From positions 64,001 through 128,000 of the IMG/VR virus record IMGVR_UViG_3300033067_002502: a stretch of 64,000 nucleotides of DNA. One strand, 5' to 3'. Origin of the DNA: a virus. Its lineage: Duplodnaviria; Caudoviricetes. Of this stretch, positions 1 through 38,261 are shown in pieces. The notes under the pieces are model-generated. The model worked only from the letters and a program-made list of their open reading frames with translations. It was not told the DNA's origin and did not search any database. The position numbers were made by a program, and so were the translations under genes. Numbering within the stretch: position 1 is the first letter of the stretch; each line of letters opens with the position of its first letter.

Positions 1-2
1 AC

Positions 3-50
3 GAACTTATAATTAAAGCATTAAATAGATCTAATAATTTGCGAAAATAA
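3..50 (+). CDS. 3' end of an upstream CDS, truncated by the window edge (...ELIIKALNRSNNLRK*)
   Basis: Open frame from position 3 to TAA at 48-50, followed by a non-coding gap; same strand as all other genes. Confidence 0.4.
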   Translation, partial: ELIIKALNRSNNLRK

Positions 51-142
51 TTAGAGGCATTTATGTTTAGTTATCTGTATTAGTGATTATTAGTAAATAG
101 TCGTTTTTGTCTTCAAATTTTAAATTGAAAACTAACTTGGTC

Positions 143-208
143 AAAACTTTCCTAAAATCAAGCAAAACAGCTTGTATTTCTTCGTAAAAGAAGAAATAGG
201 AAAGTTTT
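143..208 (+). promoter_or_regulatory. Three-stem structured element in the phoH leader
   Basis: All Watson-Crick stems: AAAACTTTCC(143-152)/GGAAAGTTTT(199-208) enclosing CAAGC(159-163)/GCTTG(170-174) and TATTTCTTC(175-183)/GAAGAAATA(190-198); followed by a T-rich tract, then the SD. Confidence 0.55.
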
Positions 209-228
209 TTATTTTAACTGGAGTATAT

Positions 229-1032
229 ATGTCAAGAAAAACAAAAGGTAAGAAAGAAGTTAAGGATTTTTCTTTTATAGAACAACACAATCATACAAAA
301 TTACTTGTTACTGTTACTGCTAAAAATGCAGGACAGAAGAAAGCATTAAAAGCTATATCAGAAAACCAGGTAACTTTTTTATATGGAAGTGCTGGTACAG
401 GAAAGAGTCACTGCGCTGTAGGTTGGGGTATTCAAGAAATGCTTAAAGGTCATTATGATAAATTAGTTTTTACAAGACCTTACGTTGAGGCTGGCGAAAA
501 GATGGGATTTTTACCTGGAGGTACTGATGATAAATTTGCTCCATTTGTTATGCCTCTTTATGAAATTGTTGGAGACTATTTAAGTGCTACAGATATTAAA
601 GAAATGATAGAAAAAAAGAAAATTATTATTTATCCATTTGCTTATATGAGAGGAGTAACTTTTAAAAAATCATATGTTGTAGCAGATGAATGTCAAAATT
701 CAACAGTACAACAAATGAGAATGATACTAACTCGCCTTGGTGAAGGATCTAAGCTTGTTTGTACAGGAGATACAGAACAGTCAGATCTTGGTTCTAGAAT
801 GAATGGATTATCAGATGCTATAAATAAATTACAAGGAATAAATGGTCTTGAATTTGTAGAACTTGGTTATGAGTCATGTGTTAGAGAGAAGATTGTTTCT
901 GAAATTGATAAAAGATACAGAGATTCAAATTCTTCTTATCCAAATTTGATAAAAGCAAGAGAAAATATAAATAAAAATAATGGAGAAATTCCAAATATTA
1001 GTCATTCAATTGAAAGCGAGAAGTATGATTGA
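229..1032 (+). CDS. phoH: PhoH family ATPase
   Basis: Walker A GSAGTGKS, TRPYVEAGEKMGFLPG, AYMRGVTF, Walker B VVADECQN, LTRLGEGSKLVCTGDTEQSDL; start moved from 172 to ATG 229, which has SD GGAG at 220-223. Confidence 0.95.
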   Translation: MSRKTKGKKEVKDFSFIEQHNHTKLLVTVTAKNAGQKKALKAISENQVTFLYGSAGTGKSHCAVGWGIQEMLKGHYDKLVFTRPYVEAGEKMGFLPGGTDDKFAPFVMPLYEIVGDYLSATDIKEMIEKKKIIIYPFAYMRGVTFKKSYVVADECQNSTVQQMRMILTRLGEGSKLVCTGDTEQSDLGSRMNGLSDAINKLQGINGLEFVELGYESCVREKIVSEIDKRYRDSNSSYPNLIKARENINKNNGEIPNISHSIESEKYD

Positions 1033-1044
1033 CGATAATAGCAT

Positions 1045-1914
1045 ATGCTCTATGCTAATAATATTACAGATTGGAAAGAAGGTTTAAATCAAATTATTTG
1101 CGGAGATTGCAATGATATTGTTGGTTTATTGCCAAATAAATCAGTTGATGTTTGTATAACCTCTCCTCCATATTGGCAGCAAAGAAATTACGGGTATGAT
1201 GGTCAGATAGGCTTAGAAAAGAGTCTATCTGATTATTTATTGGTAATGGTTGATTTTTTTGATTCAGTAAAAAGAGTTCTTAAGGATGATGGAACTCTTT
1301 GGATTAATATGGGAGATTGTTTTAATGAAAATAGCGGAGGTTATTTTGACAATAAAAAGAACGATGCTCCTAAAATAGGTAAACACAGAATAAAAACAGA
1401 AAAGTATCAAAAAGAAATACCTAGACGATCTCTTTTAATGATTCCTTATCGTTTTGCTATAGATATGATTGATAAAAAAGGATGGTTTTGTAGAAATCAC
1501 ATTATATGGAAAAAGAAAGTAGTTCAACCAACAACAGCAGAAAATAGATTTACAATAGATTATGAACCTATATTTATGTTTTCTAAAAAACAAAGGTATT
1601 TCTTTAATAAGAAAAAAGTAAAATATGTTCATAATGATAATATTTTTAATTCTCCAAGAGAAAGACGCTCTGTTTGGGATTTGAGCTCAGAACATACTGG
1701 AAAAGTAGAACATTCTGCTCCGTATCCAGAAGATCTTGTTGATATTATGATAGACGCAACGTGTCGTCCAAATTCTATAGTTTTAGATCCATTTATGGGG
1801 TCAGGAACGACAGCTTTATCAAGTAAAAAGAAGGGTTTTTCTTTTTTTGGAGGTGATAAGGGTGTAGATATTTGTAATAAAGCTCAATATAGGTTAGATT
1901 CCTTCAAATATTAA
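1045..1914 (+). CDS. DNA amino-methyltransferase, beta class (N6_N4_Mtase), probably m4C; orphan
   Basis: Catalytic TSPPYW near the N-terminus, SAM-binding VLDPFMGSGTT near the C-terminus, HSAPYPEDLV; no cognate endonuclease adjacent. Confidence 0.92.
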   Translation: MLYANNITDWKEGLNQIICGDCNDIVGLLPNKSVDVCITSPPYWQQRNYGYDGQIGLEKSLSDYLLVMVDFFDSVKRVLKDDGTLWINMGDCFNENSGGYFDNKKNDAPKIGKHRIKTEKYQKEIPRRSLLMIPYRFAIDMIDKKGWFCRNHIIWKKKVVQPTTAENRFTIDYEPIFMFSKKQRYFFNKKKVKYVHNDNIFNSPRERRSVWDLSSEHTGKVEHSAPYPEDLVDIMIDATCRPNSIVLDPFMGSGTTALSSKKKGFSFFGGDKGVDICNKAQYRLDSFKY

Positions 1915-1967
1915 AGGGATTTACTACAATTGTTTGAATTGGTAAATGGTTAAGGAGATCAAGTAAT

Positions 1968-4900
1968 ATGAATGTTTTTAGCATAATAAATAAATTAAAA
2001 GATAGTTTTTTGAAAGAAGCAGTATCTTTAAAAAAATACAGACAACCGGATATAACTCAAGACGAAAAAGATAAACCTTTTTCATCTTATGTTCCTCCTG
2101 TAGCAGGAGGAGGTCTTATTCCTCCTAAAAAGCAAAGTCCAGCCACTGGAGGAGATTTGTCTGTTGATAAGTCTCCTATTTCTAATTCTAATATTGGGAA
2201 TAGTCCTGTTGTGCAAAAGAAAGACACTATCGCTAAAACTGTTCCTCAATTTTTGCAAGTATATAAAGTGATGTTTAATAAAGAAGTATCAGATTTTTCT
2301 AGCAGAAATCCAATTACAAATTATCAAATTATTGAAGAAATTTTTAAGCCATTTTTATTAGAACAAAGAGAAAGTCTTGAAAATAATCTAGATCTTCCTA
2401 ATTGGGAAAACAGGCTTGAAGCTCTTAAACTTTTTGAAGAAGTATTTAATAATGAAATAAGAGGACATGTAGAGGGAGAGTCTGTTCCAGAAGATTCTAT
2501 TGATAGAAGACAGTATCCTGATTTATCTGATAAGGAAATGAGAAACCTTATTGAAAGAAATATTAGTTCGTTTGCAGGAGGTATGGGTGGAAGATCTAAG
2601 GCTTTGAAACAAATTGCAACTCTTCCAGAAATTGTTCAAAATGACGCTAATAGTAGGCTTTTTGAAAGAATAAAAACAGAGTATCAAGGAAGTATAAATC
2701 AAAGCGAATTAACAGATCAAGATAGAAAAGATTTAATAAAAATCTTTATGGATAGTTATTTAAATACCGCAAAAGCTAAGAATCCTCAAGAAAAAGCAAA
2801 AATTCAATCTAGATTAATGGCTCTTATGCCTGATATGGAAAAAGATCCTTATCTTATTCCTGAAAAAGATGATTTTGAAAGAAGTACAAGGAAAAAACCA
2901 AAAGTGAGAGGTAGGCGTAGAGATGAAGCGGAGGATATTTTAGATGCTCCTAGAGAAGATTTTGCTAAGTCTTTTCAACTTAAAAAAGAATCAGCAAAGC
3001 CGGTTCCTGTTATAAATCCTTTTGATTTTATTGAAAAAGAATTATTTCAACCAGATTCTTTAAATAAAGAATTATTCTTATCTTTCTTTTTAGAGAAAGG
3101 CAATACAGGTCTTATTCCAGTTGAAGATTATTCAGATCCAAGAGATTCAGCTATTTTAAGAGATCAGTCTGGTACTTATAAATCCGAAGCAATGGGTTTA
3201 GTTCAGCAGCATTCTAAAGAACTTGCAGAAATTCTAAAAGGGATTATGACTAATCCAAACGATCCAAACCATGATAAATTCTTTTCATGGGTTCTTAATG
3301 AAATAAGAAGATTTGGAATAAGAAAAGAAGATCCAAGAAACACAGTTGAAGAATCTAGTGCTGTTGATTCTGATGGAAAGGCAATGGGAGGAACACTAAC
3401 TAGCTCAGATGTTGGTTTTGCTTCAGAATTCCGTCTTCCTCTTTCTAAAAACGTAATATTTGAAGAGGGATTAAAGAATACAGGACCAAAAGTAATTCCT
3501 GGTAAAACAGTTGATTTAGATACTATTGAAAGCTTTAAGCAGAATGCAATGAAATTTATTGGATTTGTTTCAGATATGTTAAAAAACATGGAAGAAGTAT
3601 ACAGTACTTCTGATAATAAAGACTTAAAGAAGGCAATTTTAGAAAGACTTGTTTATTGGGGAAGAGTAAAAAGATCTTGCGAAGATTCCGCTAAAGTGAT
3701 AATTGGAGAAGCAGAGTCTTCTAACAGAACTGGAAAAAATCTAACTGATAGAAGATCTATTCTTATTTTAAATCAAAATTGGGATGACTTTTTCAAGAAG
3801 GAACATTTTATAGAATATGGATGGAATTTAGAAGATTCTCCTGATATTTCTTCAGCAGTAAATCTTGCTATTAGAGATAAACTTCTTCCTATTGATGGAG
3901 GGTTTATACAAGATCCCAACCAAGCATATGAAGAAATGTTTGGAGGAATTGATATTAGCGATAGAGGTGCTGCAAACAAGATATTAAATAGATCAAGAGG
4001 TAAACTCCCTCTTTTGAAAGATCTTATTATAAATCCAGAACTTATACAAAAGTATGATCGAGATACTTTGATATCATTTCTTGACGTTATTGGTATTCCT
4101 CCAGATTCTATTAGTATAGGAGCTTTACTTGCTAAAAATAACAAAGGGTCATTTGAGAATAAAATGAATTATCTTAGTGAATTATCAAGAAAAGGAGTTA
4201 TTCAGAAAAATGATGCAGAAATTGAAAATATGTCTCCTCAAGAAATATCAGATTTATTTGAAACAGTTAGATCTCATTTAGAAATGATTTATTCTACAAA
4301 TGGTGAATTAAAGAAAATGCTAGGAGATTCTAGTATTGTTAATGTTAGTGATCAAGAAGTTTCACGTATTGCTTCTGAAGCAGGCATTTCTAATATTAAT
4401 AATAAGGAAGATTATAGAAAAGCAAATAATGCCGCTAAAATGGCTATTACTGCTCAATTTTATAAAACAAATTTCGGTAAATATTGTGTAGAAAAAATTT
4501 CAAATATTGAAGCTTTTGAAATCTATGTTGAAAAATCTATTAGAGAATCTTGTAATAATCCAGCATTTTTGCAATCTAATGGTTTTTCAGATAAAAATGA
4601 GTTTTTAAATTCAATAGGAGTTGAGCCTTTGAATATTGGAGATTCTGTAAAAGAAATGCCAGAAAGAAGACTTTTTCAAATTGCAAATAAGCACTATAAT
4701 AAGTTATATAAAGCTTATAGAAAAGGATTATTGTCAAAAGGTCTTTTGGATAAAAATAAAGATAAAACAGTTGAAGAAGTTGTTAATAGTATTATAGATT
4801 TACCTGAAATAGAGCCAGCTAGAATGTTAAATCAATTACCTGATGCTTTGTTTTTTGCAGAAGCCCTTGATAGCAAGCCTTCCGAAAAAGAAGCTTCTGT

Positions 4901-5042
4901 AATCTATGAAATTATTCGTAAGATTGCTATGCAAAAGAAAGAAAATCAGTCGCTTCTTTTAAAGCAAAGATTGTCTAGATTTAATGTCGATACACAGGGA
5001 GTGGACGATATTCTTGAAAAAATAAAAAATGGAAGAAGATAA
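1968..5042 (+). CDS. Large hydrophilic, largely helical hypothetical protein (possible internal head protein)
   Basis: 1024-aa ORF, SD AAGGAG upstream; charged composition with a Pro-rich linker; no recognisable catalytic motif. Confidence 0.75.
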   Translation: MNVFSIINKLKDSFLKEAVSLKKYRQPDITQDEKDKPFSSYVPPVAGGGLIPPKKQSPATGGDLSVDKSPISNSNIGNSPVVQKKDTIAKTVPQFLQVYKVMFNKEVSDFSSRNPITNYQIIEEIFKPFLLEQRESLENNLDLPNWENRLEALKLFEEVFNNEIRGHVEGESVPEDSIDRRQYPDLSDKEMRNLIERNISSFAGGMGGRSKALKQIATLPEIVQNDANSRLFERIKTEYQGSINQSELTDQDRKDLIKIFMDSYLNTAKAKNPQEKAKIQSRLMALMPDMEKDPYLIPEKDDFERSTRKKPKVRGRRRDEAEDILDAPREDFAKSFQLKKESAKPVPVINPFDFIEKELFQPDSLNKELFLSFFLEKGNTGLIPVEDYSDPRDSAILRDQSGTYKSEAMGLVQQHSKELAEILKGIMTNPNDPNHDKFFSWVLNEIRRFGIRKEDPRNTVEESSAVDSDGKAMGGTLTSSDVGFASEFRLPLSKNVIFEEGLKNTGPKVIPGKTVDLDTIESFKQNAMKFIGFVSDMLKNMEEVYSTSDNKDLKKAILERLVYWGRVKRSCEDSAKVIIGEAESSNRTGKNLTDRRSILILNQNWDDFFKKEHFIEYGWNLEDSPDISSAVNLAIRDKLLPIDGGFIQDPNQAYEEMFGGIDISDRGAANKILNRSRGKLPLLKDLIINPELIQKYDRDTLISFLDVIGIPPDSISIGALLAKNNKGSFENKMNYLSELSRKGVIQKNDAEIENMSPQEISDLFETVRSHLEMIYSTNGELKKMLGDSSIVNVSDQEVSRIASEAGISNINNKEDYRKANNAAKMAITAQFYKTNFGKYCVEKISNIEAFEIYVEKSIRESCNNPAFLQSNGFSDKNEFLNSIGVEPLNIGDSVKEMPERRLFQIANKHYNKLYKAYRKGLLSKGLLDKNKDKTVEEVVNSIIDLPEIEPARMLNQLPDALFFAEALDSKPSEKEASVIYEIIRKIAMQKKENQSLLLKQRLSRFNVDTQGVDDILEKIKNGRR

Positions 5043-5229
5043 AGACTTATTTAAAATAGATAAAATGGTTGGTGTTTGTGGGTTTTGTAGACATCATCAG
5101 CATAATCCAACTATAGAATTTAATTTTGGAGATTCTAAAGTATACTGGCTATGTCCTTCTTGTAAAAAAATGAATGAAATGGATTTTTCAAAAAATCTTC
5201 CTAAGTCTTACCCTAAAACTAGGAGATAA
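5029..5229 (+). CDS. Small zinc-ribbon protein
   Basis: CGFC...CPSC (two CxxC); overlaps the upstream gene by 14 nt. Confidence 0.75.
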   Translation: MEEDKDLFKIDKMVGVCGFCRHHQHNPTIEFNFGDSKVYWLCPSCKKMNEMDFSKNLPKSYPKTRR

Positions 5230-5231
5230 TA

Positions 5232-5798
5232 GTGTTTGTAGTAAAAAATATAACAAAAAACGAAATTTCGATACCAGATCTTAGGATAAATTTATCTCCA
5301 GGAGATCAGGTTGATTTAGATATGGTTACTTCTCGGTTTTATATAGAACAATCATGGACTCTTAAAGGATTACTTCGCAATCATGGTCTTAAGTGTATAG
5401 TAAAAGATGACGGAAGTGGGGTTTATCAAATAAAAACAGCAGAAAATCCATCTTATAATCCAAATGAAAAAACCTCATCTGACGTAATAGCTGCAGTAAA
5501 AAATCTTGAAGAAAAATTATCTAAACGATTAGATGAAAAAATTGCTTCTCAATCTCAACAACCTCAAATAGATATAAATTTACTTAATCAAGCTTTATCT
5601 GCTTTACAAGGAATAGCTTCACAATCTATTAAGGGTAATGTAGAAAAAACGGATGTAGACAATTCTTTGGTTGTTGATATCCAAAAAAGAACTCTAGATA
5701 GGCTGTCTAACAGTTCTACCTCAAATGTAAAGCATGAAGAGCAAATAACCGATAATAATGTATCTAAAAATATAGAAGAACTAGAAGGCTTGTTGTAA
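5232..5798 (+). CDS. Hypothetical protein: N-terminal beta domain, coiled coil, C-terminal amphipathic helix
   Basis: GTG start with SD AGGAG (5221-5225); VKNLEEKLSKRLDEKI coiled coil; ends NVSKNIEELEGLL. Confidence 0.75.
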   Translation: MFVVKNITKNEISIPDLRINLSPGDQVDLDMVTSRFYIEQSWTLKGLLRNHGLKCIVKDDGSGVYQIKTAENPSYNPNEKTSSDVIAAVKNLEEKLSKRLDEKIASQSQQPQIDINLLNQALSALQGIASQSIKGNVEKTDVDNSLVVDIQKRTLDRLSNSSTSNVKHEEQITDNNVSKNIEELEGLL

Positions 5799-5813
5799 TA
5801 AAAAGGAAATAAT

Positions 5814-6641
5814 ATGGCTAATAGCAGAGCGGTGGCAGTAGCAGTAGCAGTTACAGAGGAAGAGATTAAAGATGTTGAACAACAGTTAAAGGAACTAGCC
5901 AATTGTAGAATATTTATTTGCGGTGATAGGTTTTGGAATTATTCTGTTTTTGATGGCATGATGCTTTCAGATGGACATTTGCAAAAATCTACAAAAAGTA
6001 AAAATGCTAGATTTTCTTTATCTTGTAAATATGAAGAATTTGCAAAAACTTTTCAACGATTAAGTGGTAGTTTTAATTGGACAGAATCACATTGTAGGGA
6101 TATTTATGACAAAAGAACTAATAAAACATATACTTCCTGGAGATTATCTAGTAAAACTGATGAAAGATTTACCATTGAACATAAACGATGGTATCCTGAA
6201 GGCAAAAAGATAGTTCCAAAAGATTTGATTCTTGATAAAACTACTCTTGTTTGGTGGTATTTAGGAGATGGTTCTTTGAATCGCAAGAAGTCTAGGCCCA
6301 ATTATAGAAGAGTTGTTTTTTGTACGCAGGGTTTTACGGTTCAAGATGTTGATTTCCTAAAATTAAAACTTGAAGAATTATTTGGTAATGATTCTATTTA
6401 TATAGAAGAAAATCAAATTATTATTGCCAAACAATCTCTTTGTAGTTTTATTAAATTTATAGGAATAGAAAGTCCAGTTTCTTGTTACCAATATAAGTTT
6501 GATTTTGGACCATATATAAACGAAAATTATTGGAAGAAAAGTTTTGAAGATAGACCTTTGAAGTATATAAATGAATATAGAAAGATGAACAAAGTAAGAG
6601 AGTTGAACTACAAATCAAAAGAGGAGATTAATCATGGCTAA
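5814..6641 (+). mobile_element. Free-standing LAGLIDADG homing endonuclease (two-motif type)
   Basis: Motifs GMMLSDGHL and WWYLGDGSL; WYPEGKKIVP and FCTQGFTVQDVDFL segments typical of phage LAGLIDADG endonucleases. Confidence 0.85.
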
Positions 6642-7692
6642 TTCAAGAGTTCTGGGCGTGGATCTCGGAACAATGTTTTTTCAAGTTGCAGAAATGGATG
6701 GTTCTTTAGTTAAAGTAAAGAATACTCGTAATGCTTTTGTTGAGCTTCCAAAATCAGATGATGTAGAAGAAGCACTTAAAAGTAATAATTGGCAATACAT
6801 AAAAGATGGAGATAATTATTATGTAGTTGGCGATGATTGTATAAAAGTTGCAAATATTTTTCCAGGCAAAGTAGAAGTTCGTAGGCCTATGGCAGATGGA
6901 GTTCTTAATAAAAATGAAGATAAAAAACTTGTTGTCCTTGCTGAACTTGTAAAGGCATCTATAGGAAAAGCTCCTGATGATAAGTCTTGGGTTTGTACTT
7001 GCGTAAGTTCTGAATCAATTGACGGTTCTTCTGATTCTACTTTTCATAAAAACAGAGTAACTGCTTTGTTTACTCGTTTAGGTTGGAAGGTTAAGATAAT
7101 TGAAGAAGCCCATGCTGTTGTATTAAGTGAAAGACCTACTATTATTGAAGAAGATGGTACTGTTATTCCTTATTCTGGAATTGGTATTTCGTTTGGAGCA
7201 GGAAGGGTAAATTGTTTATTAGCTTATAAAGGCTTGCCAGTTATAGGAATGTCTGTTGCTAGATCTGGTGATTGGGTTGATAAGCAAGTATCTGAGCAAA
7301 CAGGAGTTGCTATTTCTCAAGTTATTTCAACTAAGGAACGAAAATTAGACTTTACTAAAATAGATGACGACGATGATGTTCTTTTTGCTTTAAATGCTTA
7401 CTACGATGTTATGATTGAGTATGTTTTTAAACATTTTGGAAATAAATTTCAAGAAGTAAAAAGCCAATTTACTCAACCTCTTGATATTATAGTTGCTGGA
7501 GGAACAAGTATGCCTAAAGGTTTTTGCCAGAAATTAGAGAAAATAGTAAGAGGGTTAGAATTGCCGTTCCAAATTAAAGAAGTAAGACATGCAAAGAATC
7601 CTAGAAATTCAGTAGTAGAAGGTTTGTTGACTCAAGCTCTTATAACACAGAAAAAAGAGGTTTCAGAAGCTTTAGACAAAATACTAACCTAA
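6634..7692 (+). CDS. Actin-superfamily ATPase (MreB/ParM/FtsA fold; volactin-like)
   Basis: Phosphate-1 LGVDLGT, RRPMADGVL, connect-1 EEAHAVVLSE, phosphate-2 GIGISFGAGRVN, ARSGDWVD, adenosine motif IIVAGGTSMPKGF; SD GAGGAG 6621-6626. Confidence 0.9.
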   Translation: MANSRVLGVDLGTMFFQVAEMDGSLVKVKNTRNAFVELPKSDDVEEALKSNNWQYIKDGDNYYVVGDDCIKVANIFPGKVEVRRPMADGVLNKNEDKKLVVLAELVKASIGKAPDDKSWVCTCVSSESIDGSSDSTFHKNRVTALFTRLGWKVKIIEEAHAVVLSERPTIIEEDGTVIPYSGIGISFGAGRVNCLLAYKGLPVIGMSVARSGDWVDKQVSEQTGVAISQVISTKERKLDFTKIDDDDDVLFALNAYYDVMIEYVFKHFGNKFQEVKSQFTQPLDIIVAGGTSMPKGFCQKLEKIVRGLELPFQIKEVRHAKNPRNSVVEGLLTQALITQKKEVSEALDKILT

Positions 7693-7703
7693 CGGAAAGT
7701 TAA

Positions 7704-8432
7704 ATGGCATATGCAACAACAACACAAGTTTATGATATTCTTGCTCAAGCTCTTACAAGCGCAACAAATAGGGTTGTGAACGGTCAGCCAGTTCCTTTAT
7801 GGACATTTGGAAAAAGTAAAGACGGTAATGTTATTTCTGATGATACTGTTCTTCAGTATATAACTTGGGCAGGAGAACAAATAGATGCTTCAATAAGCGA
7901 AATGTATGTTACTCCCTTAAGTGAAAAATCAGATTTAGAACTTGCTCTTTTGTCAGATATTGATACATATAATGACACAGTTCAAGTAGATAAAGCTGTT
8001 GTATTGAATCCAGGAGATACTCTTGTTTTTATTAGCGATTTATCAGAAGAAAGACATACTGTTTCTTCTATAACGAATAATACAGATATAGAATTGCAAG
8101 ATGCACTACTTGGTGTATATCATGTAGAAACTACTAGAATTATAAGAGTAAAGTTTCCATCAACTATTAGTTTAATGTGCGCAAGGTTCGCTGCTGCAAG
8201 TATTTATGACAAATACTTTGCTTCTCAAGCGAATCCAAATATTTCAGATTATGGTAAAACACTTAGAAAGTGGGCTGTATCTGACTTAAATGCAATATTA
8301 AATGGAATTGTCATTCTTCATGGACAAAAAAGAATAGGACATCGCTTCTTCAATCCTACACTAAGAGACAGATATGGATTGCCTCCTTTGGATAAGGATT
8401 TCAATATTAAAATTGAAGGAGGAGATGCATGA
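7704..8432 (+). CDS. Head-tail adaptor/connector (Mu gp36/DUF1320-like) with an inserted beta domain
   Basis: MAYATxxQV start, IxxAxxxIDxxIxxxYxxPL and PxxIxxxCARxAAxxIY helices typical of neck adaptors; located upstream of the tail genes. Confidence 0.65.
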   Translation: MAYATTTQVYDILAQALTSATNRVVNGQPVPLWTFGKSKDGNVISDDTVLQYITWAGEQIDASISEMYVTPLSEKSDLELALLSDIDTYNDTVQVDKAVVLNPGDTLVFISDLSEERHTVSSITNNTDIELQDALLGVYHVETTRIIRVKFPSTISLMCARFAAASIYDKYFASQANPNISDYGKTLRKWAVSDLNAILNGIVILHGQKRIGHRFFNPTLRDRYGLPPLDKDFNIKIEGGDA

Positions 8433-8677
8433 AAAGTCCAGGAAAAGATGGATTTGATCAGATAATTGATTTGATTAGTGAGATTAAAAATTTAGATGGA
8501 AGAAAAATACAAGATGTAACTTTTTCATCAAAGATTGTTATTAGTAAAACTCCAGATGAAGCAAAAAAAAGAAGCGATTATCAACAATTTCTTAGAGACA
8601 ATCTTGCAGAAGAAGAAGAATTGGGTAGTCATGCTAAGAATTTTGTTGAAGATATAGTTAGAAAACATTTGGATTAA
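8429..8677 (+). CDS. Hypothetical protein
   Basis: ATGA overlap with the upstream gene, SD GAAGGAGGAG; 82 aa. Confidence 0.7.
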   Translation: MKSPGKDGFDQIIDLISEIKNLDGRKIQDVTFSSKIVISKTPDEAKKRSDYQQFLRDNLAEEEELGSHAKNFVEDIVRKHLD

Positions 8678-8683
8678 AATAAC

Positions 8684-9589
8684 ATGCTAGAATTTTTAGA
8701 AAGCGTTAGAAGGACAATATATAGGTGGGTAAATACAACCGTTCCTTTAACGGCTGACTGTTCTTATGGTTCTACTACCGTTACTGTTACTTCGTCAAGA
8801 AGATTCCGTGTTGGTGATGAGGTCTCTATTCATGACGGAGTTAACGGAGAGCCAGGTTTGAGAATTAGCGAAATTCCAGATGATAATACTGTTATTCTTG
8901 TAAGCCCAATTAAAGTTATAACAGGTTGGAGAGTTTCTTCGGGAGCTATGCTTACAAAAACATACGATGGACAATTTGTTCAAGCTTTATATTTAGGAGA
9001 TCCAGATGTTATTCCTCGTTATCCTGCAATAGCGATTCTTGGACAAAAAAGTACATCTGAGTGGTTTACTTTAGGAACAACTAAAGAGAGATATGAATTA
9101 CAAATAGTTGTTTATGCAGAAAATGACGGGCAAGAAGCTTCTTATAAATCTGTTATGCAAATTGCAAACATTATACAGCTTGGACTTAAGAAGAATTTTT
9201 ACCCACTTATTGGTCCTTATGAAACAGTAAATGTTACTGCAAACGTTTCTGATGGAGATCAATTTATAAAAGTTGCAGATTCTTCAATATTTTCATGCGA
9301 AGATAAGATTCTTATTGAAAATGTTTATCAAGCAGAAGAATTAAGGGTTGCAGCGATTCCTGATTCAACAACAATACAAGTTTGGCCTAATATTTTTAAT
9401 GATTATTTAACAACGGATCAATCTAAAATAATTAGATTAACTAGGTTTGTCTATAATTCTTGGCCTAGTAGTGTTGATTATGGATTTAAATACAAAGGGA
9501 CGCTTCTTCATGCAGCAAGTATAAGTTGGTTTGGAGAAGAACAAGAAATACAAACTCGTCATGGATGGTCAGATCCTCAACTTTCTTAA
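8684..9589 (+). CDS. Putative tail terminator/completion protein with two inserted beta domains
   Basis: YLGDPDVIPRYPAIAI...ERYELQIVVY core typical of tail terminators; located between adaptor and tube. Confidence 0.55.
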   Translation: MLEFLESVRRTIYRWVNTTVPLTADCSYGSTTVTVTSSRRFRVGDEVSIHDGVNGEPGLRISEIPDDNTVILVSPIKVITGWRVSSGAMLTKTYDGQFVQALYLGDPDVIPRYPAIAILGQKSTSEWFTLGTTKERYELQIVVYAENDGQEASYKSVMQIANIIQLGLKKNFYPLIGPYETVNVTANVSDGDQFIKVADSSIFSCEDKILIENVYQAEELRVAAIPDSTTIQVWPNIFNDYLTTDQSKIIRLTRFVYNSWPSSVDYGFKYKGTLLHAASISWFGEEQEIQTRHGWSDPQLS

Positions 9590-9594
9590 TAAAT

Positions 9595-9888
9595 ATGTGG
9601 TATAAAAAAGCAAATAATTTAGGATATATGGGTATTGGGCAGACTCCAAAAGCAGGATTACCTGTATTCCTTTGGTGGTGGGACGGAACTTTTCATGTAG
9701 AAAAAACAGATGATCCAAAAAGAGGACATTCTTCTGTTATTCCAGATATGGATAAGGTTATTTGTAGAGGAAGATTTGATCCAAAAACCAATGACGTAAG
9801 TGTAATGGGTAATATTATTGCTAAAGAAGCAATACAAAATATAAAAAGACAGTGGCCTGGATCTAAAATACATGTATTTAGAATATAA
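9595..9888 (+). CDS. Small hypothetical protein starting MWYKKA
   Basis: ATG at 9595 lies just after the upstream stop (the track's 9526 start would overlap it); 97 aa. Confidence 0.65.
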   Translation: MWYKKANNLGYMGIGQTPKAGLPVFLWWWDGTFHVEKTDDPKRGHSSVIPDMDKVICRGRFDPKTNDVSVMGNIIAKEAIQNIKRQWPGSKIHVFRI

Positions 9889-9896
9889 CTGAATAA

Positions 9897-9904
9897 GCCG
9901 ATAA
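9897..9904 (+). promoter_or_regulatory. Candidate promoter -10 element GCCGATAA (sigma28/FliA-type consensus)
   Basis: Exact GCCGATAA in the intergenic gap; GACGATA variants at 1031, 13367 and 15263 in other gaps. Confidence 0.4.
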
Positions 9905-9952
9905 TATTATTGTAAAACTGACCCCGTAAGGTCTTTAAAGGAGAAAGTTCCT

Positions 9953-10525
9953 ATGAAAATAAATGATGGTAGAATAGATAAATCATTATACGCTGCTATA
10001 AGTGACGAATTCCAAAAAACGATGGATGCTTGGAGCGAAAAGTTTGCAGAAATAGAATCTGTAAGGCGAAAAAATAATTTAGAGTTACTTTATCTTAGTA
10101 CCGTAAATTTAATAGATATTGTTAAAAATACGCAAAATTATTTTGAAAAAAATGTTTATCATTCTATGAGTAGATTACAATTTGCTCAATGTTATGGTAC
10201 TGTAAAAGTATGTACCTCAAGAGAGTCTGGTCATACAACAGTAATAAGCAGACTTATAGAAGAAAAATTCAATAAAGTTATTGTTGTTTTGCCTACAATG
10301 AATATGGTAGAAATCTATAAACGATTACCTAGTTTTCAAAATATTAAAAATAAAATTTATTTTTGCAGTCCGAATTGTTTTGAAAGTAAGCTTTTAGGCT
10401 TTTATGATTTTGAAGCAGTTATTGTTGATTGTTCATTTCTTATTTCTCAGTCTAAAATAGATGAATTGTATAAAATAACTTGTTCTGTAATGGATAGACG
10501 ACCTTTATACTTATTTATGGAATAA
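9953..10525 (+). CDS. Small P-loop-fold protein with degenerate Walker motifs
   Basis: SRESGHTT (compare RQxGKT), KVIVVLPT, AVIVDCS; SD AAGGAG. Confidence 0.6.
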   Translation: MKINDGRIDKSLYAAISDEFQKTMDAWSEKFAEIESVRRKNNLELLYLSTVNLIDIVKNTQNYFEKNVYHSMSRLQFAQCYGTVKVCTSRESGHTTVISRLIEEKFNKVIVVLPTMNMVEIYKRLPSFQNIKNKIYFCSPNCFESKLLGFYDFEAVIVDCSFLISQSKIDELYKITCSVMDRRPLYLFME

Positions 10526-11698
10526 ATGATGAAAATATTAACAATTGGAGCTTCTCCTTACCTTCTTGTTCGTAACGGTAAGATTAATGCTGATATTATA
10601 AATAGACTTGTTTTTGAAGGACATGATGTTTCTTCTGCTGTTTGGCATCATGATGAAGGTTATTTTATGCCATCAGAAGAAGGTGTTCATTCTTATGAAA
10701 AAGATAATAAAAATATTTGTCAACTTTATCCTTTTTCTCCTAAAACAGACGAGTCTTCTCCTTTTATTTATGAGTTAATGAAATCTGTTCAGCCTGAAAT
10801 TGTTATAACCATAGGAGATCATAAGGATACTAATTTTTTATATGCTATAAAAGCAATGTATCCTAATTTATTTAAATGGATTGCTATTTATACAATTGAT
10901 TGTAATGGAATACCGTCACAAAATAAAGATGCATTTGAATATGCTGATTATATTATTACAACAAATGAATTTTCTTTGAAGGAAATTTCTTCCTTTGCCA
11001 ATGTTGAAGGATTATTTATTCCATATGGACCAGATAAGGTCTTTAAATATGATAAATCTTCTAAAAGAGATTTAATTTTGTGTTCTTCTAGAAATGCACA
11101 ATCAAGTAATATTGCTTCTTTCTTAAAATCAACTTCTGGTGTTGAATTTTGTAAATTTATTCCATATTTGCATACGAATATGTACGATCCAGGCGATTAC
11201 AGTATAGATAGTCTTAAGGAAAAGTATAAATCAGAGTATTTGCAATATACAACAGATTATTGTTCTATTAAGGAAGGAATTACTGAAAATAAAATGGTAG
11301 AAATATACAATAGATCTGCAATTATTGTGGATTGTTCAATTAAATCAGCTACTGGATTGTCTTTGCTAGAGGGAATGGCTTGTGGGTGTATTCCTGTTGG
11401 CATGGATTATGGAAGAATTGGAGAGATTATATCTCTTATGCCAGAAAAATACAGATTTACTGTTCCTTATAATATTTTTGTTGGTCAGAATGAAGAAGAA
11501 TTTGCAATTATTTGTCCAAACAAACTCAGAATGACATTGCTTGAGATAAAGAATAAAATGGGTGCTTTGCAAGAGGCATCAGAAGCTGCAATAAACGTTG
11601 CAAATATGTTTTCTAACAAATCTTTTGTTGACAAATTGTTAGATATTATTCAAAAAGTACGTTTTTCTAAAGAGTCAATAGCTTTAGATGTTATTTAA
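10526..11698 (+). CDS. Glycosyltransferase, GT-B fold (GT4-like)
   Basis: MKILTIG start, QPEIVITIGD, ADYIITTNEFS, IPYGPD, IYNRSAIIV...GLSLLEGMACGCIPV. Confidence 0.85.
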   Translation: MMKILTIGASPYLLVRNGKINADIINRLVFEGHDVSSAVWHHDEGYFMPSEEGVHSYEKDNKNICQLYPFSPKTDESSPFIYELMKSVQPEIVITIGDHKDTNFLYAIKAMYPNLFKWIAIYTIDCNGIPSQNKDAFEYADYIITTNEFSLKEISSFANVEGLFIPYGPDKVFKYDKSSKRDLILCSSRNAQSSNIASFLKSTSGVEFCKFIPYLHTNMYDPGDYSIDSLKEKYKSEYLQYTTDYCSIKEGITENKMVEIYNRSAIIVDCSIKSATGLSLLEGMACGCIPVGMDYGRIGEIISLMPEKYRFTVPYNIFVGQNEEEFAIICPNKLRMTLLEIKNKMGALQEASEAAINVANMFSNKSFVDKLLDIIQKVRFSKESIALDVI

Positions 11699-11747
11699 AA
11701 TAACATTTACTAAGAAGGATTTGATATATAGACTATTGAAAAAGAGG

Positions 11748-11778
11748 ATACTTCGTGTTCGTAATGAATATGAAGTAT
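11748..11778 (+). promoter_or_regulatory. 13-bp hairpin (terminator or leader stem-loop)
   Basis: ATACTTCGTGTTC-gtaat-GAATATGAAGTAT with two G:U pairs, followed by GGTTTATTATTT, in the intergenic gap. Confidence 0.5.
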
Positions 11779-11822
11779 GGTTTATTATTTAGGATTAAGT
11801 TTAGAAAGAGGAGTCAACAAAA

Positions 11823-12254
11823 ATGGCATCTAATAACGTAATTAGCGGAGTGGATTATTTAGCTATCGCAACTTACTACTCGAATGCAAGAGCTAGTAAT
11901 ACAGGTTCGGTTGACTATTTGTACGAAGCGGTATACAAGATTGTTTTATCTACTCAATTCTATCCAACGATAGATCTAATTAATGAATTCTGGACTAGCT
12001 ATAAGATTAACGCAGATATTTATAGATCTCCGTCTACATATCTTAGTGCTGTTCGAGCAATTAATAATCACGTTGTAAATAGAGCTGGATCAACGGTAAC
12101 TGATGTTAATGATTATCTCATTGAAGAGAATATTACCGTTCCTATGGGGTGGGCAGAACTTTGCAAGAATACAGGAGTTCTTATTTGTCTTACAAGAATT
12201 TCTAATCCAGGTGGAACTACATATGCAGATGGTACAACTATTCCAGCTTGCTAA
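11823..12254 (+). CDS. Hypothetical protein, probably a virion component
   Basis: SD GAGGAG; 143 aa; directly upstream of the tail tube gene. Confidence 0.75.
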   Translation: MASNNVISGVDYLAIATYYSNARASNTGSVDYLYEAVYKIVLSTQFYPTIDLINEFWTSYKINADIYRSPSTYLSAVRAINNHVVNRAGSTVTDVNDYLIEENITVPMGWAELCKNTGVLICLTRISNPGGTTYADGTTIPAC

Positions 12255-12291
12255 GAATGGTTTTTGATTTTAATGTTTAGGAGAATTTTAC

Positions 12292-13350
12292 ATGGCTATA
12301 CCATACGCTCAAATGGGATTTGTTGGGTCTGTTAGATTTAGTGGAGGATCTATTGGACAAGAAATATTTGTTAGGGCTAAGTCTTGCGACATAAGAGCAA
12401 AGCAGGAAATATCTTATCCAGATGTAGTTGATGGTCGTATTGATAGAACTCTTTATCAAATTGGACCAAGAACTGTTGATGGGAATTGCGATTTTCCTCT
12501 AGTTCACGAAGGAATAGTTAATGGAACTCAAAAGAATTGCGGAGAAGGAACTGCCACTTGCGAAACAAATTTAGCTAACAGACTTTGGAATATTGCAGCT
12601 AAAAGAGATCAAGTAGGTAGACTTGTAAATCAATTCAATATAGATGTTCGTTATACAGATAACACTGCTTATAGATATCCAAATTGTATTATAAATACAA
12701 TGAAAATAAATGTTACTCAAAGCGCAGAAGTAAATATGAGCTTTGGAGTTATTGGTGGATCTAATTCTACAGATAATGTTAGAGAAATTATTTCAGAAGA
12801 CAGAGCTCCTGTTTTTATGTCACCTGCTCGTATTGTTACTTGGAATGATTTTAGAATAAATGTTTTTGTTAGAGAAGAAAGCATAACTCTTCCAGGAGCT
12901 TATATTAGGTCATTTGATGTTACTTTAAACAACAATGCAGATCGTTTCTATACATTGAACGGAAAACTAGCTCCTCAAGATATTACAGCAAAAAAGAGAG
13001 CAATTGAAGGAAGTCTTTCTCTTATGGGTTTTGCTAATAAGCAATTTTATGATTTCATCTATAATAATCAAAATCGCTTTACTTCTCAAACTAAGATTCA
13101 GTTCGGATATACTCTTGGAAGTGGATCTGTTCCTTATTGGGCAACCGCTTTATGGGGTGTTATTTTTCAGATTGAAGAAGTTGCTATCAGTAATGAACTC
13201 ATTGAAACAAGAGTTCCTTTTGTTGCTTTAGGTGACTGCGAAAATGATTACGAAGCTATTGAACTAGGAACATGCAATGTTAGCGTCGATAATTCTAACG
13301 CAACATTTGGCGGTCCAACAGCTCCTGGTTACTTTACTCCTTTGAGCTAA
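12292..13350 (+). CDS. Major tail tube protein (two tandem tube domains)
   Basis: IRSFDVTLNNN...FYTLNG...KKRAIEGSLSL tube signature, with an N-terminal echo (SCDIRAKQE...GPRTVDGNCDF); precedes the chaperone and tape measure genes. Confidence 0.8.
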   Translation: MAIPYAQMGFVGSVRFSGGSIGQEIFVRAKSCDIRAKQEISYPDVVDGRIDRTLYQIGPRTVDGNCDFPLVHEGIVNGTQKNCGEGTATCETNLANRLWNIAAKRDQVGRLVNQFNIDVRYTDNTAYRYPNCIINTMKINVTQSAEVNMSFGVIGGSNSTDNVREIISEDRAPVFMSPARIVTWNDFRINVFVREESITLPGAYIRSFDVTLNNNADRFYTLNGKLAPQDITAKKRAIEGSLSLMGFANKQFYDFIYNNQNRFTSQTKIQFGYTLGSGSVPYWATALWGVIFQIEEVAISNELIETRVPFVALGDCENDYEAIELGTCNVSVDNSNATFGGPTAPGYFTPLS

Positions 13351-37155: not shown

Positions 37156-37171
37156 GGAGTGGTGGTGAAAA

Positions 37172-38248
37172 ATGGCTGGCAATCCCAATATAAAAGTTTA
37201 TTTTGAAAATTCAGTTGGAGAGGTTTTAGGGAACAAAGGCTCTAGAATTTTTAATTCCATAGTTAAAAATGCGGAAATACAATTTAAGATATATATAGAA
37301 AATTCAGGAGATACTGGCACTACTTTAGTGATTCCTAGAAGCGGTATATCTTTAATTACTAATAGTTCAGGATTTTTGGTAAATAGTCCAACATTAAACT
37401 CTTCTATTGGTATTTTTTACGGAGATAGCGGTTCTTATGTTTCAGTTCTTATTAATTCTTCTAGCATTGGTAGTAAATTTATAACTATTTCTATAGAATC
37501 AAATGATCCGAATATTGATAAATTTGAATATACATTTTATTTTGAAATAATAGGAGTTGATACTTCTGGAGCTATAGATTCTTCAGATATTTCAGTAGTA
37601 TATAATGGCCTTCTTTATCCGTTAAATGGAACTATTAATCTTGGTTTTATTCCTGAGTTTTCGACTATGGATATTCCTTTTCAAATATTTAATTACGGAA
37701 CAGGATCTCTTGTTATACCTCAAAATGGTATAACAATAACAGTATTTGGTAATAATGAAAGTCTTATTTTAGATCCATCATCTACAGAAGAAATTTCTAT
37801 TTCTTATAATTTATTTTCTACTTTTAAAGTTAGAATTGATACTTCTTCTTTAGGATTGAAATCTTTTATTATTACTATTGTCTCAAATGATTCTTTAAAA
37901 ACACCTTTTATTATTACAGTTAATTATATAGTAGCATCTACATTTGATTTATTTGTAAAAGAATCTTCTGAAGAAGTTATTGATCAAGAAGTTTTGAGTC
38001 TTGGATCTTTTGATAAGAAGTCGATAATAAATAGAAATATAAGTCTTAGTAACAAGGGAATATCTTATGGGATTAGGTTACTTAGTTTTATTTCTGATGG
38101 AGACATTACTCTTAGCGGAATTCCTTCTTTGCCTTTTGTTTTGCAGCCAAATGAAAAAAATTCTTTACAGATTGTTGCTAAATTAGGATCTACTGTTCTT
38201 GGTAAAAGAAATGCCTCTTTAGGTTTTCAGTGGGAAGTTTCTGCTTAA
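37172..38248 (+). CDS. Protein with three ASH / choice-of-anchor-D type Ig-like domains
   Basis: Repeats IENSGDTGTTLVIP / IFNYGTGSLVIP / LSNKG, with GxKxxxIxIxSND ends. Confidence 0.7.
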   Translation: MAGNPNIKVYFENSVGEVLGNKGSRIFNSIVKNAEIQFKIYIENSGDTGTTLVIPRSGISLITNSSGFLVNSPTLNSSIGIFYGDSGSYVSVLINSSSIGSKFITISIESNDPNIDKFEYTFYFEIIGVDTSGAIDSSDISVVYNGLLYPLNGTINLGFIPEFSTMDIPFQIFNYGTGSLVIPQNGITITVFGNNESLILDPSSTEEISISYNLFSTFKVRIDTSSLGLKSFIITIVSNDSLKTPFIITVNYIVASTFDLFVKESSEEVIDQEVLSLGSFDKKSIINRNISLSNKGISYGIRLLSFISDGDITLSGIPSLPFVLQPNEKNSLQIVAKLGSTVLGKRNASLGFQWEVSA

Positions 38249-38261
38249 TTAAGGAAATAGT

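What the first reader, a model, noticed from the sequence alone, without database searches (positions are those of the whole stretch)
5029..7692. Phage-encoded actin plus candidate adaptor inside the virion-assembly operon: a possible cytomotive (capsid/DNA positioning) system
Seen: 6634-7692 has all the actin-fold motifs and is co-oriented and tightly coupled with a zinc-ribbon gene, a 188-aa protein and the head-tail adaptor 11 nt downstream. Known: the motif string (TRNAFVE, VGDD..KVANIF, RRPM..GVL, GISFGAG..N, SVARxGDWxD, ALxxYY, GGTSxPxGF) matches my recollection of haloarchaeal volactin more than MreB or plasmid ParM. Some jumbo phages position DNA and capsids with the tubulin PhuZ, and ParR-type adaptors engage ParM through a C-terminal helix. 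Inference: the 188-aa protein (small beta domain, coiled coil, flexible linker, terminal amphipathic helix VSKNIEELEGLL) looks like an adaptor. Late-gene placement suggests that an actin filament handles capsids or virions rather than segregating plasmids.
Basis: partly seen in the sequence, partly recalled or inferred. Interest (0 to 1): 0.85.

Follow-up and report, generated by a model that had tools for sequence, protein, structure and literature searches.

The report
Actin gene cassette in half-megabase phages
A clade of uncultured phages with genomes of about 500 kb carries its own actin-like gene (volactin family), always with the same two small partner genes just upstream of the head-tail adaptor gene, so these phages probably build an actin cytoskeleton in the infected cell, though no filament has been seen.

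Summary
ORF 6634-7692 is an actin-fold ATPase: Pfam Volactin E 4.8e-64, AlphaFold pLDDT 90, and closest solved structure MamK (Z 27.4). The Zn-ribbon gene, the 188-aa gene and a probable head-tail adaptor 11 nt downstream are all present.

The window is part of a 170-kb fragment of a roughly 500-kb phage. Its capsid protein is 49% identical to gp27 of Bacillus phage G. The order Zn-ribbon, 188-aa gene, actin, adaptor is found in all 28 related IMG/VR contigs and in four contigs from other collections, down to 35% actin identity. The acidic-hydrophobic C-terminal tail of the 188-aa protein is kept throughout. Phage G has a tubulin and no volactin; three related genomes, 98-100% complete, have the reverse.

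The cytomotive reading is plausible but unproven. Polymerisation, binding between the actin and the 188-aa protein, and the cargo were not tested. The N-domain of the 188-aa protein also occurs in actin-less phage G, and gene order is conserved across the whole module, so adjacency is weak evidence.

This is a new variant of a known kind (phage cytoskeletons). The same stretch was noted once more in this scan.

The parts
1968..5042 (+). 1024-aa fast-evolving protein of unknown function, first gene of the tightly packed block. Its stop overlaps the Zn-ribbon gene by 14 nt.
   Evidence: No Pfam or PHROG hit and no Atlas hit. It is 22-39% identical in loci where the actin is 81-87% identical. A protein of comparable length (1052-1234 aa) occupies the same place in L025 and L030, but the family profile does not detect it there. 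The N-terminus carries FLKEA.
5029..5229 (+). 66-aa four-cysteine Zn-ribbon protein, first member of the conserved three-gene cassette.
   Evidence: CGFC...CPSC. Zn_ribbon_LapB E 1.4e-4, below cut-off. Family found in 26 of 28 adaptor-anchored loci; the other two are cut by the contig end. Also in L025, L027 and L030.
5232..5798 (+). 188-aa candidate adaptor. It has an N-terminal beta-rich domain (residues 1-60), variable helical middle, a conserved VDIHKRTxxRL motif and a conserved acidic-hydrophobic C-terminal tail (...ELEGLL).
   Evidence: Alignments. AF2 gives pLDDT of about 90 for the N-domain and low confidence for the rest. Found upstream of the actin in 28 of 28 loci. C-termini of distant members: NTDIEDII, IHDIADEL, INILEDL. 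The N-domain is shared with phage G gp158.
5814..6641 (+). Free-standing LAGLIDADG homing endonuclease gene inserted at the 5' end of the actin gene. It is a mobile insertion and not part of the cassette.
   Evidence: LAGLIDADG_2 E 9.4e-22, phrog_11023 1.3e-22. It is present in the window and in 6 of the 28 related IMG/VR contigs and absent from the rest; L007 has a short 62-aa ORF in its place. It begins with the actin's own first five codons, MANSR. HEG-free L002 has a 15-nt spacer.
6634..7692 (+). 352-aa volactin-family actin-like ATPase.
   Evidence: PF25216 E 4.8e-64. AF2 pLDDT 90. VIA-align Z 27.4 to MamK, 26.4 to BeeR, 25-26 to Mbl/MreB, 25 to crenactin, 24.5 to F-actin. Family profile against PDB: MamK E 7e-16.
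7704..8432 (+). 242-aa probable head-tail adaptor, always immediately downstream of the actin apart from occasional insertions.
   Evidence: phrog_195 in 13 of 17 members, best 8.5e-6. All 28 loci found with this protein as query carry the actin upstream.
8429..9589 (+). 82-aa and 301-aa genes (8429-8677 and 8684-9589), probable neck or tail-completion proteins that close the block.
   Evidence: Order conserved. Only weak PHROG hits to tail assembly, tail terminator and virion structural families. The 301-aa protein shares a roughly 65-aa domain with the 242-aa adaptor.

Best explanation
The gene at 6634-7692 encodes a phage actin of the volactin family. It most likely binds ATP and polymerises into filaments in the infected cell.

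It works as a unit with the two small genes upstream:
- the 66-aa Zn-ribbon protein;
- the 188-aa protein, whose invariant acidic-hydrophobic C-terminal tail most likely docks on the actin, while its N-terminal beta domain holds a phage component.

The unit is transcribed with the head-tail joining and tail genes. Its most likely job is therefore spatial organisation late in infection: moving or positioning very large capsids, tails or packaging substrates that diffuse poorly. This would be the actin counterpart of the PhuZ tubulin spindle.

Shown here: the fold, family membership, conservation, gene order, and the complementary distribution with tubulin. Inferred: polymerisation, the tail-actin contact, the timing of expression, and the cargo.
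For: Fold and family:
- Pfam Volactin E 4.8e-64.
- The AF2 model's top 50 structural neighbours are filament-forming actins and actin-related proteins: MamK Z 27.4, BeeR, Mbl/MreB, crenactin, F-actin. No Hsp70 or sugar kinase appears among them.
- The family profile hits MamK at 7e-16 and DnaK only at 0.02.
- The founding member, volactin of Haloferax volcanii, forms dynamic filaments in vivo (PMC10869688).
- Phosphate-1 D10/G12/T13, the connect-1 Glu (E158) and the GGTS adenosine motif are conserved.

Selection:
- The actin is the best-conserved gene of its neighbourhood, or within a point of the best, in all 19 loci (59-87% identity). In the distant loci it leads by 10 points or more.
- Inteins sit at three or more sites around its phosphate-2 loop in relatives, as is usual for essential catalytic cores.

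Cassette:
- The order Zn-ribbon, 188-like gene, actin, adaptor holds in 28 of 28 IMG/VR contigs (up to 548 kb) and in L025, L027, L030 and L063, down to 35% actin identity.
- The C-terminal tail is kept while the middle of the 188-aa protein drifts.

Cytoskeleton swap:
- Phage G, the closest cultured relative by capsid protein (48.6%), has a tubulin (PF00091 E 4.7e-17) and no volactin.
- Three related genomes, 98-100% complete (G001-G003), and LR745208 have volactin and no tubulin.

Precedent:
- The AlpA adaptor gene lies upstream of the actin-like alpC gene in prophage CGP3 (PMC4446434).
Against: - Nothing here shows polymerisation or any protein-protein contact.
- Gene order is conserved across the whole module, so adjacency does not single out the 188-aa gene as a partner. 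No relative lacking the actin but keeping the adaptor was found, so co-loss could not be tested.
- The N-domain of the 188-aa protein also occurs in actin-less phage G.
- Volactin-family genes in other phage contexts (L022, L026, L029, L032) have no 188-like neighbour. LR745208 has only a weak one (P 0.004).
- The family replaces the usual phosphate-2 DxGxGxxD with SxGxGxxN, so its ATPase chemistry may differ from that of MamK and MreB.
- The tubulin/actin contrast rests on one phage G genome against four others.
- Late expression is inferred only from position and the absence of terminators.
Confidence: 0.45

Rival explanations
1. The protein is a non-polymerising actin-fold ATPase that acts as a chaperone or assembly factor for the neck and tail. 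It would be an Hsp70-like role, comparable to the Hsp70 homologue of closteroviruses that helps build the virion tail, with the 188-aa protein as a scaffold or co-chaperone.
For: The gene is invariably fixed just upstream of the head-tail adaptor (28 of 28 loci), inside a tightly packed block that leads into the tail-tube genes. The 188-aa protein has a coiled-coil and disordered build with a conserved C-terminal peptide, which is also typical of phage scaffolding and assembly proteins. Its N-domain exists in a phage without the actin.
Against: Every close structural neighbour is a filament former. DnaK is only a marginal profile hit (E 0.02), and no Pfam HSP70 hit or substrate-binding domain is present. 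Volactin itself forms filaments. The same family also occurs in unrelated contexts without virion genes.
Confidence: 0.2
2. The cassette is a DNA-positioning or partition system of the ParMRC or AlpAC type. The Zn-ribbon or the 188-aa protein would bind phage DNA and couple it to growing actin filaments, to place replicating or packaging-ready genomes.
For: All characterised plasmid and prophage actins (ParM, AlfA, Alp7A, AlpC) move DNA through a small adaptor encoded beside them (PMC4446434). Some volactin-family proteins carry an N-terminal ParB HTH domain (P0188, P0198). Salactin, another haloarchaeal actin, aids DNA partitioning. The Zn-ribbon partner could bind nucleic acid.
Against: No iteron or centromere-like repeat array lies in or near the cassette. 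No DNA-binding fold was recognised in the 188-aa protein. The cassette sits with the neck and tail genes, not the replication genes. The genomes end in direct terminal repeats, and nothing suggests a plasmid prophage that would need partitioning.
Confidence: 0.2
3. The actin, with or without its partners, is packaged in the virion and ejected with the DNA, so that filaments form at the very start of the next infection.
For: The gene lies among virion genes. The upstream 1024-aa protein carries a K-x-A motif that another note of this scan reads as a head-targeting or cleavage signal (note e1-5780961, not tested here).
Against: The actin has no such N-terminal motif, there is no proteome of any member, and no precedent is known to me.
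Confidence: 0.07

Closest known systems
Volactin (HVO_2015) of Haloferax volcanii, Pfam PF25216
   Same: Same Pfam family over the full length (E 4.8e-64). Shares the family signature motifs GIGISFGAG..N, GDWxD and GGTSxPxGF. Volactin forms dynamic cytoplasmic filaments (PMC10869688).
   Different: This one is encoded by a phage, not an archaeal chromosome. It scores lower against the family model (217 bits, against 257-379 for the fused family members scanned and 268 for a Bryobacterales chromosomal one), so it is a divergent branch. It has dedicated small partner genes and sits among virion genes. Volactin's role is cell shape.
MamK (magnetosome actin; PDB 5ljv, 5jyg)
   Same: Closest solved structure (Z 27.4, rmsd 2.9 A over 297 residues) and best profile hit in the PDB (E 7e-16). 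MamK is a filament former that positions a large cargo.
   Different: Only 19% identical. MamK's phosphate-2 DIGAGTTD is SFGAGxxN here. The partners and the biology are unrelated.
AlpC/AlpA of Corynebacterium glutamicum prophage CGP3, and ParM/ParR
   Same: A mobile-element actin with a small adaptor gene beside it. As with alpA-alpC, the candidate adaptor gene lies upstream of the actin gene.
   Different: AlpA and ParR bind DNA repeats next to the operon, and none are present here. alpAC are early genes of a small cryptic prophage, whereas this cassette sits with the neck and tail genes of a roughly 500-kb phage. The actin belongs to a different family (Volactin, not ParM-like).
PhuZ/TubZ tubulins of jumbo phages
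   Same: A cytoskeletal polymer encoded by very large phages. The distribution is complementary with tubulin: phage G has tubulin and no volactin, and the actin clade has the reverse. PhuZ centres phage DNA in infected cells (PMC7950403) and, from my own knowledge, also carries capsids along its filaments.
   Different: A different protein superfamily (actin, not tubulin). The function here is untested. I did not look for a phage-nucleus shell gene.

Membership tests
Actin/ASKHA filament-forming actin-like proteins | Four-subdomain actin fold with phosphate-1, connect-1, phosphate-2, adenosine and connect-2 elements | tested here: met
   AF2 pLDDT 90, pTM 0.89. Z 24-27 over about 290-310 residues to MamK, BeeR, MreB, crenactin and F-actin. 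Motifs: DLGT, EEAHAV, ISFGAG, GGTS.
Actin/ASKHA filament-forming actin-like proteins | ATP-dependent polymerisation into filaments | not testable with these tools
   No multimer prediction or experiment was available. The only support is indirect: all structural neighbours polymerise and volactin does so in vivo.
Volactin family (Pfam PF25216) | Full-length match above the curated gathering score | tested here: met
   217.3 bits against a cut-off of 35, covering 3-321 of 321. Confirmed on the genome at 216.9 bits.
Volactin family (Pfam PF25216) | Family signature: SxGxGxxN phosphate-2, GDWxD, GGTSxPxGF | tested here: met
   S186, G188, G190, N193, G212, D213, D216, G289, G290, G296 and F297 are invariant or nearly so in 76 diverse representatives and are present here.
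MreB/Mbl (PF06723) | Match above the Pfam gathering score | tested here: not met
   19.5 bits against a cut-off of 27, E 5e-4, partial.
ParMRC / AlpAC type II partition systems | A DNA-binding adaptor plus a centromere-like repeat array beside the operon | tested here: not met
   No tandem or dispersed repeat array in 1-12500. No DNA-binding domain was detected in the 188-aa or 66-aa proteins. DNA binding itself was not tested.
ParMRC / AlpAC type II partition systems | The adaptor's terminal peptide binds the actin-like protein | not testable with these tools
   The C-terminal tail is conserved, but no complex prediction was possible.
Hsp70/DnaK chaperones | Hsp70 nucleotide-binding domain signature plus a substrate-binding domain | tested here: not met
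   No Pfam HSP70 hit. DnaK scores only E 0.02 with the family profile. The protein ends after the actin fold at 352 aa.
Phage head-tail adaptor (phrog_195), for the 242-aa neighbour | Profile match to the adaptor family | tested here: inconclusive
   E 5e-4 for the window protein over residues 1-74 only. 13 of 17 relatives match, the best at 8.5e-6. No PDB sequence hit. No structure was predicted.

The most novel reading that the evidence does not exclude
A whole clade of half-megabase phages has replaced, or never had, the PhuZ-type tubulin spindle and uses an actin cytoskeleton of its own instead. A dedicated adaptor would grip the filament with a C-terminal acidic-hydrophobic tail (ending ELEGLL in this phage) and grip a virion sub-assembly with a beta domain inherited from the common ancestor with phage G. 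Heads, tails or packaging substrates too large to diffuse would then be brought together actively. This would be the first actin-driven virion-assembly logistics in a bacterial virus.
Probability: 0.2. Interest if true: 0.85.

Novelty: new variant of a known kind. Interest (0 to 1): 0.62.

Why it matters
Phage cytoskeletons are known from tubulins (PhuZ, TubZ) and from a few actin-like proteins that move prophage or plasmid DNA. This is a different actin family. The only studied member of this family that I know of is an archaeal cell-shape protein. In these phages it is a core, strongly conserved gene of a widespread clade of the largest known phages, it has its own partner genes, and it sits among the virion genes.

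If it polymerises, three things follow:
- Very large phages would have solved intracellular logistics at least twice, once with tubulin and once with actin.
- The volactin family would gain a tractable set of candidate binding partners.
- The phage G lineage (tubulin) and this clade (actin) would offer a natural comparison.

The finding also extends the volactin family well beyond haloarchaea, to many phages and to Acidobacteriota chromosomes. Inteins split the actin's ATP site in relatives, and I could not find that reported in the papers searched.

Tried and rejected
- **The 352-aa protein as the major capsid protein** (it sits after a coiled-coil gene and before the adaptor). Rejected: it has an actin fold, and the real capsid gene lies 26.7 kb upstream, together with the portal and a protease-scaffold polyprotein.
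- **Recent host capture.** Rejected.
- **Sequence searches of the 188-aa, 242-aa and 301-aa families against the PDB.** Nothing significant.
- **PHROGs on the 188-aa family.** No consistent hit.
- **ESM Atlas on the 188-aa and 1024-aa proteins.** Only unnamed viral clusters, or nothing.
- **Fold searches with the 188-aa model.** The PDB lists were filled by generic long helices (VIA-wide, best Z 5.5), and Foldseek found nothing below E 1; the best row, prophage protein YqbF at E 1.4, is not significant.
- **tblastn of the adaptor and the tail tube against GenBank phages.** No match.
- **Neighbours of the distant actins in LR745208 and LR756511.** No homologues of the window's genes, apart from a weak N-domain resemblance in LR745208.
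- **Centromere-like repeats.** None.
- **Promoter scan.** No more sites than in shuffled sequence, so uninformative.
- **Scan of genome contigs with the diverse alignment A5.** Failed for lack of a conserved stretch.
- **Careful maximum-likelihood tree of the family.** It did not finish; only a quick tree was obtained, so I make no claim about the origin or direction of transfer. The haloarchaeal volactin sequence itself could not be fetched, so it is not in the tree.


Full report
**What is in the window**

The window is bases 64001-128000 of a 170,416-bp IMG/VR viral contig that CheckV rates 34% complete, so the full genome is about 500 kb. G+C is about 30%, and nearly all long ORFs lie on the + strand. 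Across the finding's coordinates and their immediate flanks the ORFs are:

| Coordinates | Product |
|---|---|
| 1968-5042 | 1024 aa |
| 5029-5229 | 66 aa |
| 5232-5798 | 188 aa, GTG start |
| 5814-6641 | 275 aa |
| 6634-7692 | 352 aa |
| 7704-8432 | 242 aa |

The 352-aa protein matches Pfam PF25216 (Volactin) end to end at E 4.8e-64, while MreB_Mbl stays below its cut-off. The 66-aa protein has two CxxC pairs. It is wrong in treating the 188-aa gene as directly coupled to the actin in this sequence.

**The homing endonuclease is a late insertion**

Its ORF starts with the actin's own ribosome-binding site and first five codons (MANSR). The actin gene then restarts with the same five codons behind a new GAGGAG inside the endonuclease's 3' end. 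In the HEG-free relative L002, the 188-aa stop and the actin start are 15 nt apart. The endonuclease is present in the window and in 6 of the 28 related IMG/VR contigs, and a short 62-aa ORF occupies its place in L007.

**The protein is a real actin homologue**

- AlphaFold2 on a 38-sequence alignment gave pLDDT 90 and pTM 0.89, with the full four-subdomain layout.
- Foldseek and VIA-align place it among filament-forming actins: MamK filament Z 27.4 (rmsd 2.9 A over 297 residues), BeeR 26.4, Mbl/MreB 25-26, crenactin 25, F-actin about 24.5. No Hsp70 or sugar kinase appears in the top 50.
- A profile of 76 diverse family members hits MamK at 7e-16, BeeR at 7e-11, MreB at 3e-9 and FtsA at 8e-8. 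DnaK reaches only 0.02.
- The family has its own signature. Phosphate-2 reads SxGxGxxN where MamK and MreB have DxGxGxxD, and there are GDWxD and GGTSxPxGF motifs.
- The founding member, volactin of Haloferax volcanii, forms dynamic filaments in vivo (PMC10869688).

**Which phage this is**

The head genes lie upstream on the same contig:
- portal at 33328-36630;
- a 1992-aa protease-scaffold polyprotein at 37147-43125;
- the major capsid protein at 43937-44827 (phrog_2522, E 5.5e-58).

Notes from other windows of this scan gave me that lead, and I checked it. The capsid protein is 48.6% identical to gp27 of Bacillus phage G, its best match among GenBank phages. Related IMG/VR records include complete genomes of 488,051 and 498,568 bp with direct terminal repeats.

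Downstream of the actin come:
- a probable head-tail adaptor (phrog_195 in 13 of 17 members, best 8.5e-6);
- two small structural-looking genes;
- a GT4 glycosyltransferase;
- a Phage_tube_2 tail-tube protein (E 5.4e-16).

From 1968 to 9589 the genes overlap or lie at most 15 nt apart, and no terminator-like site lies in any intergenic gap. The first clear terminators are at 11748 and 15202. The actin is thus about 26.7 kb from the capsid gene, behind PhoH and a methylase, at the head of the neck and tail module. 'Inside the virion-assembly operon' is a fair but loose description.

**Conservation**

- A word-indexed search found 610 homologues. The best 120 are all at 60% identity or more, and many lie on contigs of 250-500 kb.
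- A full HMMER scan of 1.8 billion cluster representatives found 824 clusters at E ≤ 1e-3 and 209 at E ≤ 1e-30.
- Nineteen IMG/VR loci recovered with the actin and 28 recovered independently with the adaptor (nine are new contigs, one of 547,943 bp) all show the same order: Zn-ribbon, 188-like gene, optional insertion, actin, adaptor, roughly 85-aa gene, roughly 301-aa gene.
- The same cassette occurs in L025 (49% actin identity; this relative reads TAG as Gln), L027 (39%), L030 (35%) and L063, a short contig binned into an Asgard archaeon MAG.
- The actin is the best-conserved gene of its neighbourhood, or within a point of the best. In the distant loci it leads by 10 points or more.
- Only the capsid protein is more conserved: 75-89% against 59-87% in the same records.
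- In relatives, inteins interrupt the actin at three or more sites within about 25 residues of the phosphate-2 loop. Inteins usually lodge in essential, conserved catalytic cores.

**The 188-aa protein**

Its N-terminal 60 residues fold confidently (pLDDT about 90) into a small beta-rich domain. The rest is helical and of low confidence. Across 17 or more orthologues three parts are conserved: the N-domain, a VDIHKRTxxRL motif, and above all the extreme C-terminus (E183 and L184 invariant). That C-terminus reads NIEELEGLL here, and NTDIEDII, IHDIADEL and INILEDL in the most distant members. This pattern, a drifting linker between two conserved ends, is what an adaptor would show. It is also what a scaffolding or assembly protein would show.

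The N-domain is not actin-specific. Phage G gp158 has it (Foldseek E 2.9e-4; hhalign probability 80%, E 1.4e-5), yet phage G has no PF25216 gene. One reading is a modular adaptor, with an old cargo-binding domain and a new actin-binding tail. Another is a structural protein whose link to the actin is only positional. I found no relative that keeps the adaptor gene but lacks the actin, so the test by co-loss was not possible.

**Other contexts of the family**

Volactin-family genes also occur with different neighbours.

In phages:
- L026 has a peptidyl-tRNA hydrolase upstream of the actin.
- L029 has ClpP upstream and nucleases downstream.
- L032 and LR756511 also have unrelated neighbours.
- No 188-like gene lies beside any of these. 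LR745208 has only a weak N-domain resemblance in the ORF just upstream.

In cellular genomes:
- Relatives at about 30% identity are chromosomal in Acidobacteriota and some Proteobacteria.
- They have their own conserved neighbours: a roughly 230-aa helical protein upstream, or an Amidase_2 protein upstream plus a TPR-STAND ATPase downstream.

Fusions:
- Some members are fused to a ParB HTH domain or to a Wzz/BY-kinase module.

The family is thus functionally plastic, and each lineage has recruited its own partners.

**Tubulin and actin**

Phage G carries a tubulin (PF00091, E 4.7e-17) and no volactin. Three related genomes, 98-100% complete, and LR745208 carry volactin and no tubulin. The sample is small, but the pattern is what one would expect if the two polymers do equivalent jobs.

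**How it most likely works**

My best reading, at about 0.45, is a filament-forming actin working with the two small proteins as a positioning system late in infection. The C-terminal tail of the 188-aa protein would be the filament-binding element.

The rivals:
- An Hsp70-like assembly ATPase for the neck or tail (0.2). Gene position favours it. The structural neighbours and the lack of a substrate-binding domain argue against it.
- A ParMRC/AlpAC-like DNA-positioning system (0.2). Every characterised plasmid or prophage actin, and the ParB-HTH fusions, favour it. The lack of centromere-like repeats and of a recognisable DNA-binding domain argue against it.
- A packaged, ejected actin (0.07).

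I put it at about 0.2.

**What is known**

Searches of the held literature found the following:
- volactin only in haloarchaea;
- phage cytoskeletons as PhuZ/TubZ tubulins;
- the AlpC/AlpA system of prophage CGP3;
- ParM-like genes of plasmid prophages;
- viractins of giant eukaryotic viruses.

None describes a volactin-type actin as a core gene of huge phages. The library is not complete, so an existing report cannot be excluded. I class the finding as a new variant of a known kind. Another window of this scan noted the same stretch (e1-5780971).

Noticed in passing
Proteins P0122, P0124, P0125, P0130, P0137, P0152, P0154, P0164, P0166, P0184, P0209, P0244 (relatives of window 6634-7692): Inteins (LAGLIDADG or HNH type) interrupt volactin-family actins at three or more distinct sites within about 25 residues of the phosphate-2 loop: GIS|C...HN|CGAG, GAGMxN|CL.GDTK..., and VAR|CLSKD...HN|CGDW. 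I found no mention of inteins in actin-like proteins in the papers searched.
   Followed up: partly
window 5799-5830 and 6615-6660: The homing endonuclease ORF has taken over the actin's ribosome-binding site and first five codons (MANSR). The actin restarts with the same five codons behind a new GAGGAG inside the endonuclease's 3' end.
   Followed up: yes
L025 (GCA_040384165.1, contig JAWVHB010000434.1), about 7100-9150: A relative with the same cassette (49% actin identity) needs TAG read as Gln. Its actin, Zn-ribbon and 188-like genes all contain in-frame TAG codons.
   Followed up: partly
window 7704-8432 and 8684-9589: The 242-aa adaptor and the 301-aa protein share a domain of about 65 aa, present once in the former and twice in the latter (cross-hits at E 1e-5 to 1e-9 in many loci).
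   Followed up: no
Bacillus phage G NC_023719.1 78767-79183; records G001-G003 and LR745208: Phage G has a tubulin-family gene (PF00091, E 4.7e-17) and no volactin. Three actin-clade genomes, 98-100% complete, and LR745208 have volactin and no tubulin.
   Followed up: partly
L064-L084 (Acidobacteriota and other MAG chromosomes): Cellular volactin-family genes (about 30% identity) have lineage-specific conserved neighbours. In Bryobacterales it is a roughly 230-aa helical protein just upstream. Elsewhere it is an Amidase_2 protein upstream and a TPR-STAND ATPase downstream, an arrangement that resembles a defence or signalling module.
   Followed up: partly
Proteins P0188, P0198, P0204, P0131, P0174: Domain fusions occur in the family: ParB-HTH plus volactin, volactin plus a Wzz/GNVR/ParA-like tyrosine kinase module, and proteins of about 730-750 aa in which the volactin model matches in two stretches and which may be tandem forms.
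   Followed up: no
window 1968-2030: The 1024-aa fast-evolving protein begins MNVFSIINKLKDSFLKEAV. This includes the K-x-A motif that another note of this scan reads as a head-protease or capsid-targeting signal, so it may be a head cargo protein.
   Followed up: no
L063 (JBECUL010000084.1, 7.6 kb, labelled Candidatus Asgardarchaeum abyssi MAG): This short contig carries the phage cassette (188-like gene, actin at 62% identity, adaptor). It is most likely a phage contig mis-binned into an archaeal MAG.
   Followed up: partly
window 57300-64000: There are almost no long ORFs on either strand under table 11, and ARAGORN found no tRNA genes. I did not examine this stretch.
   Followed up: no
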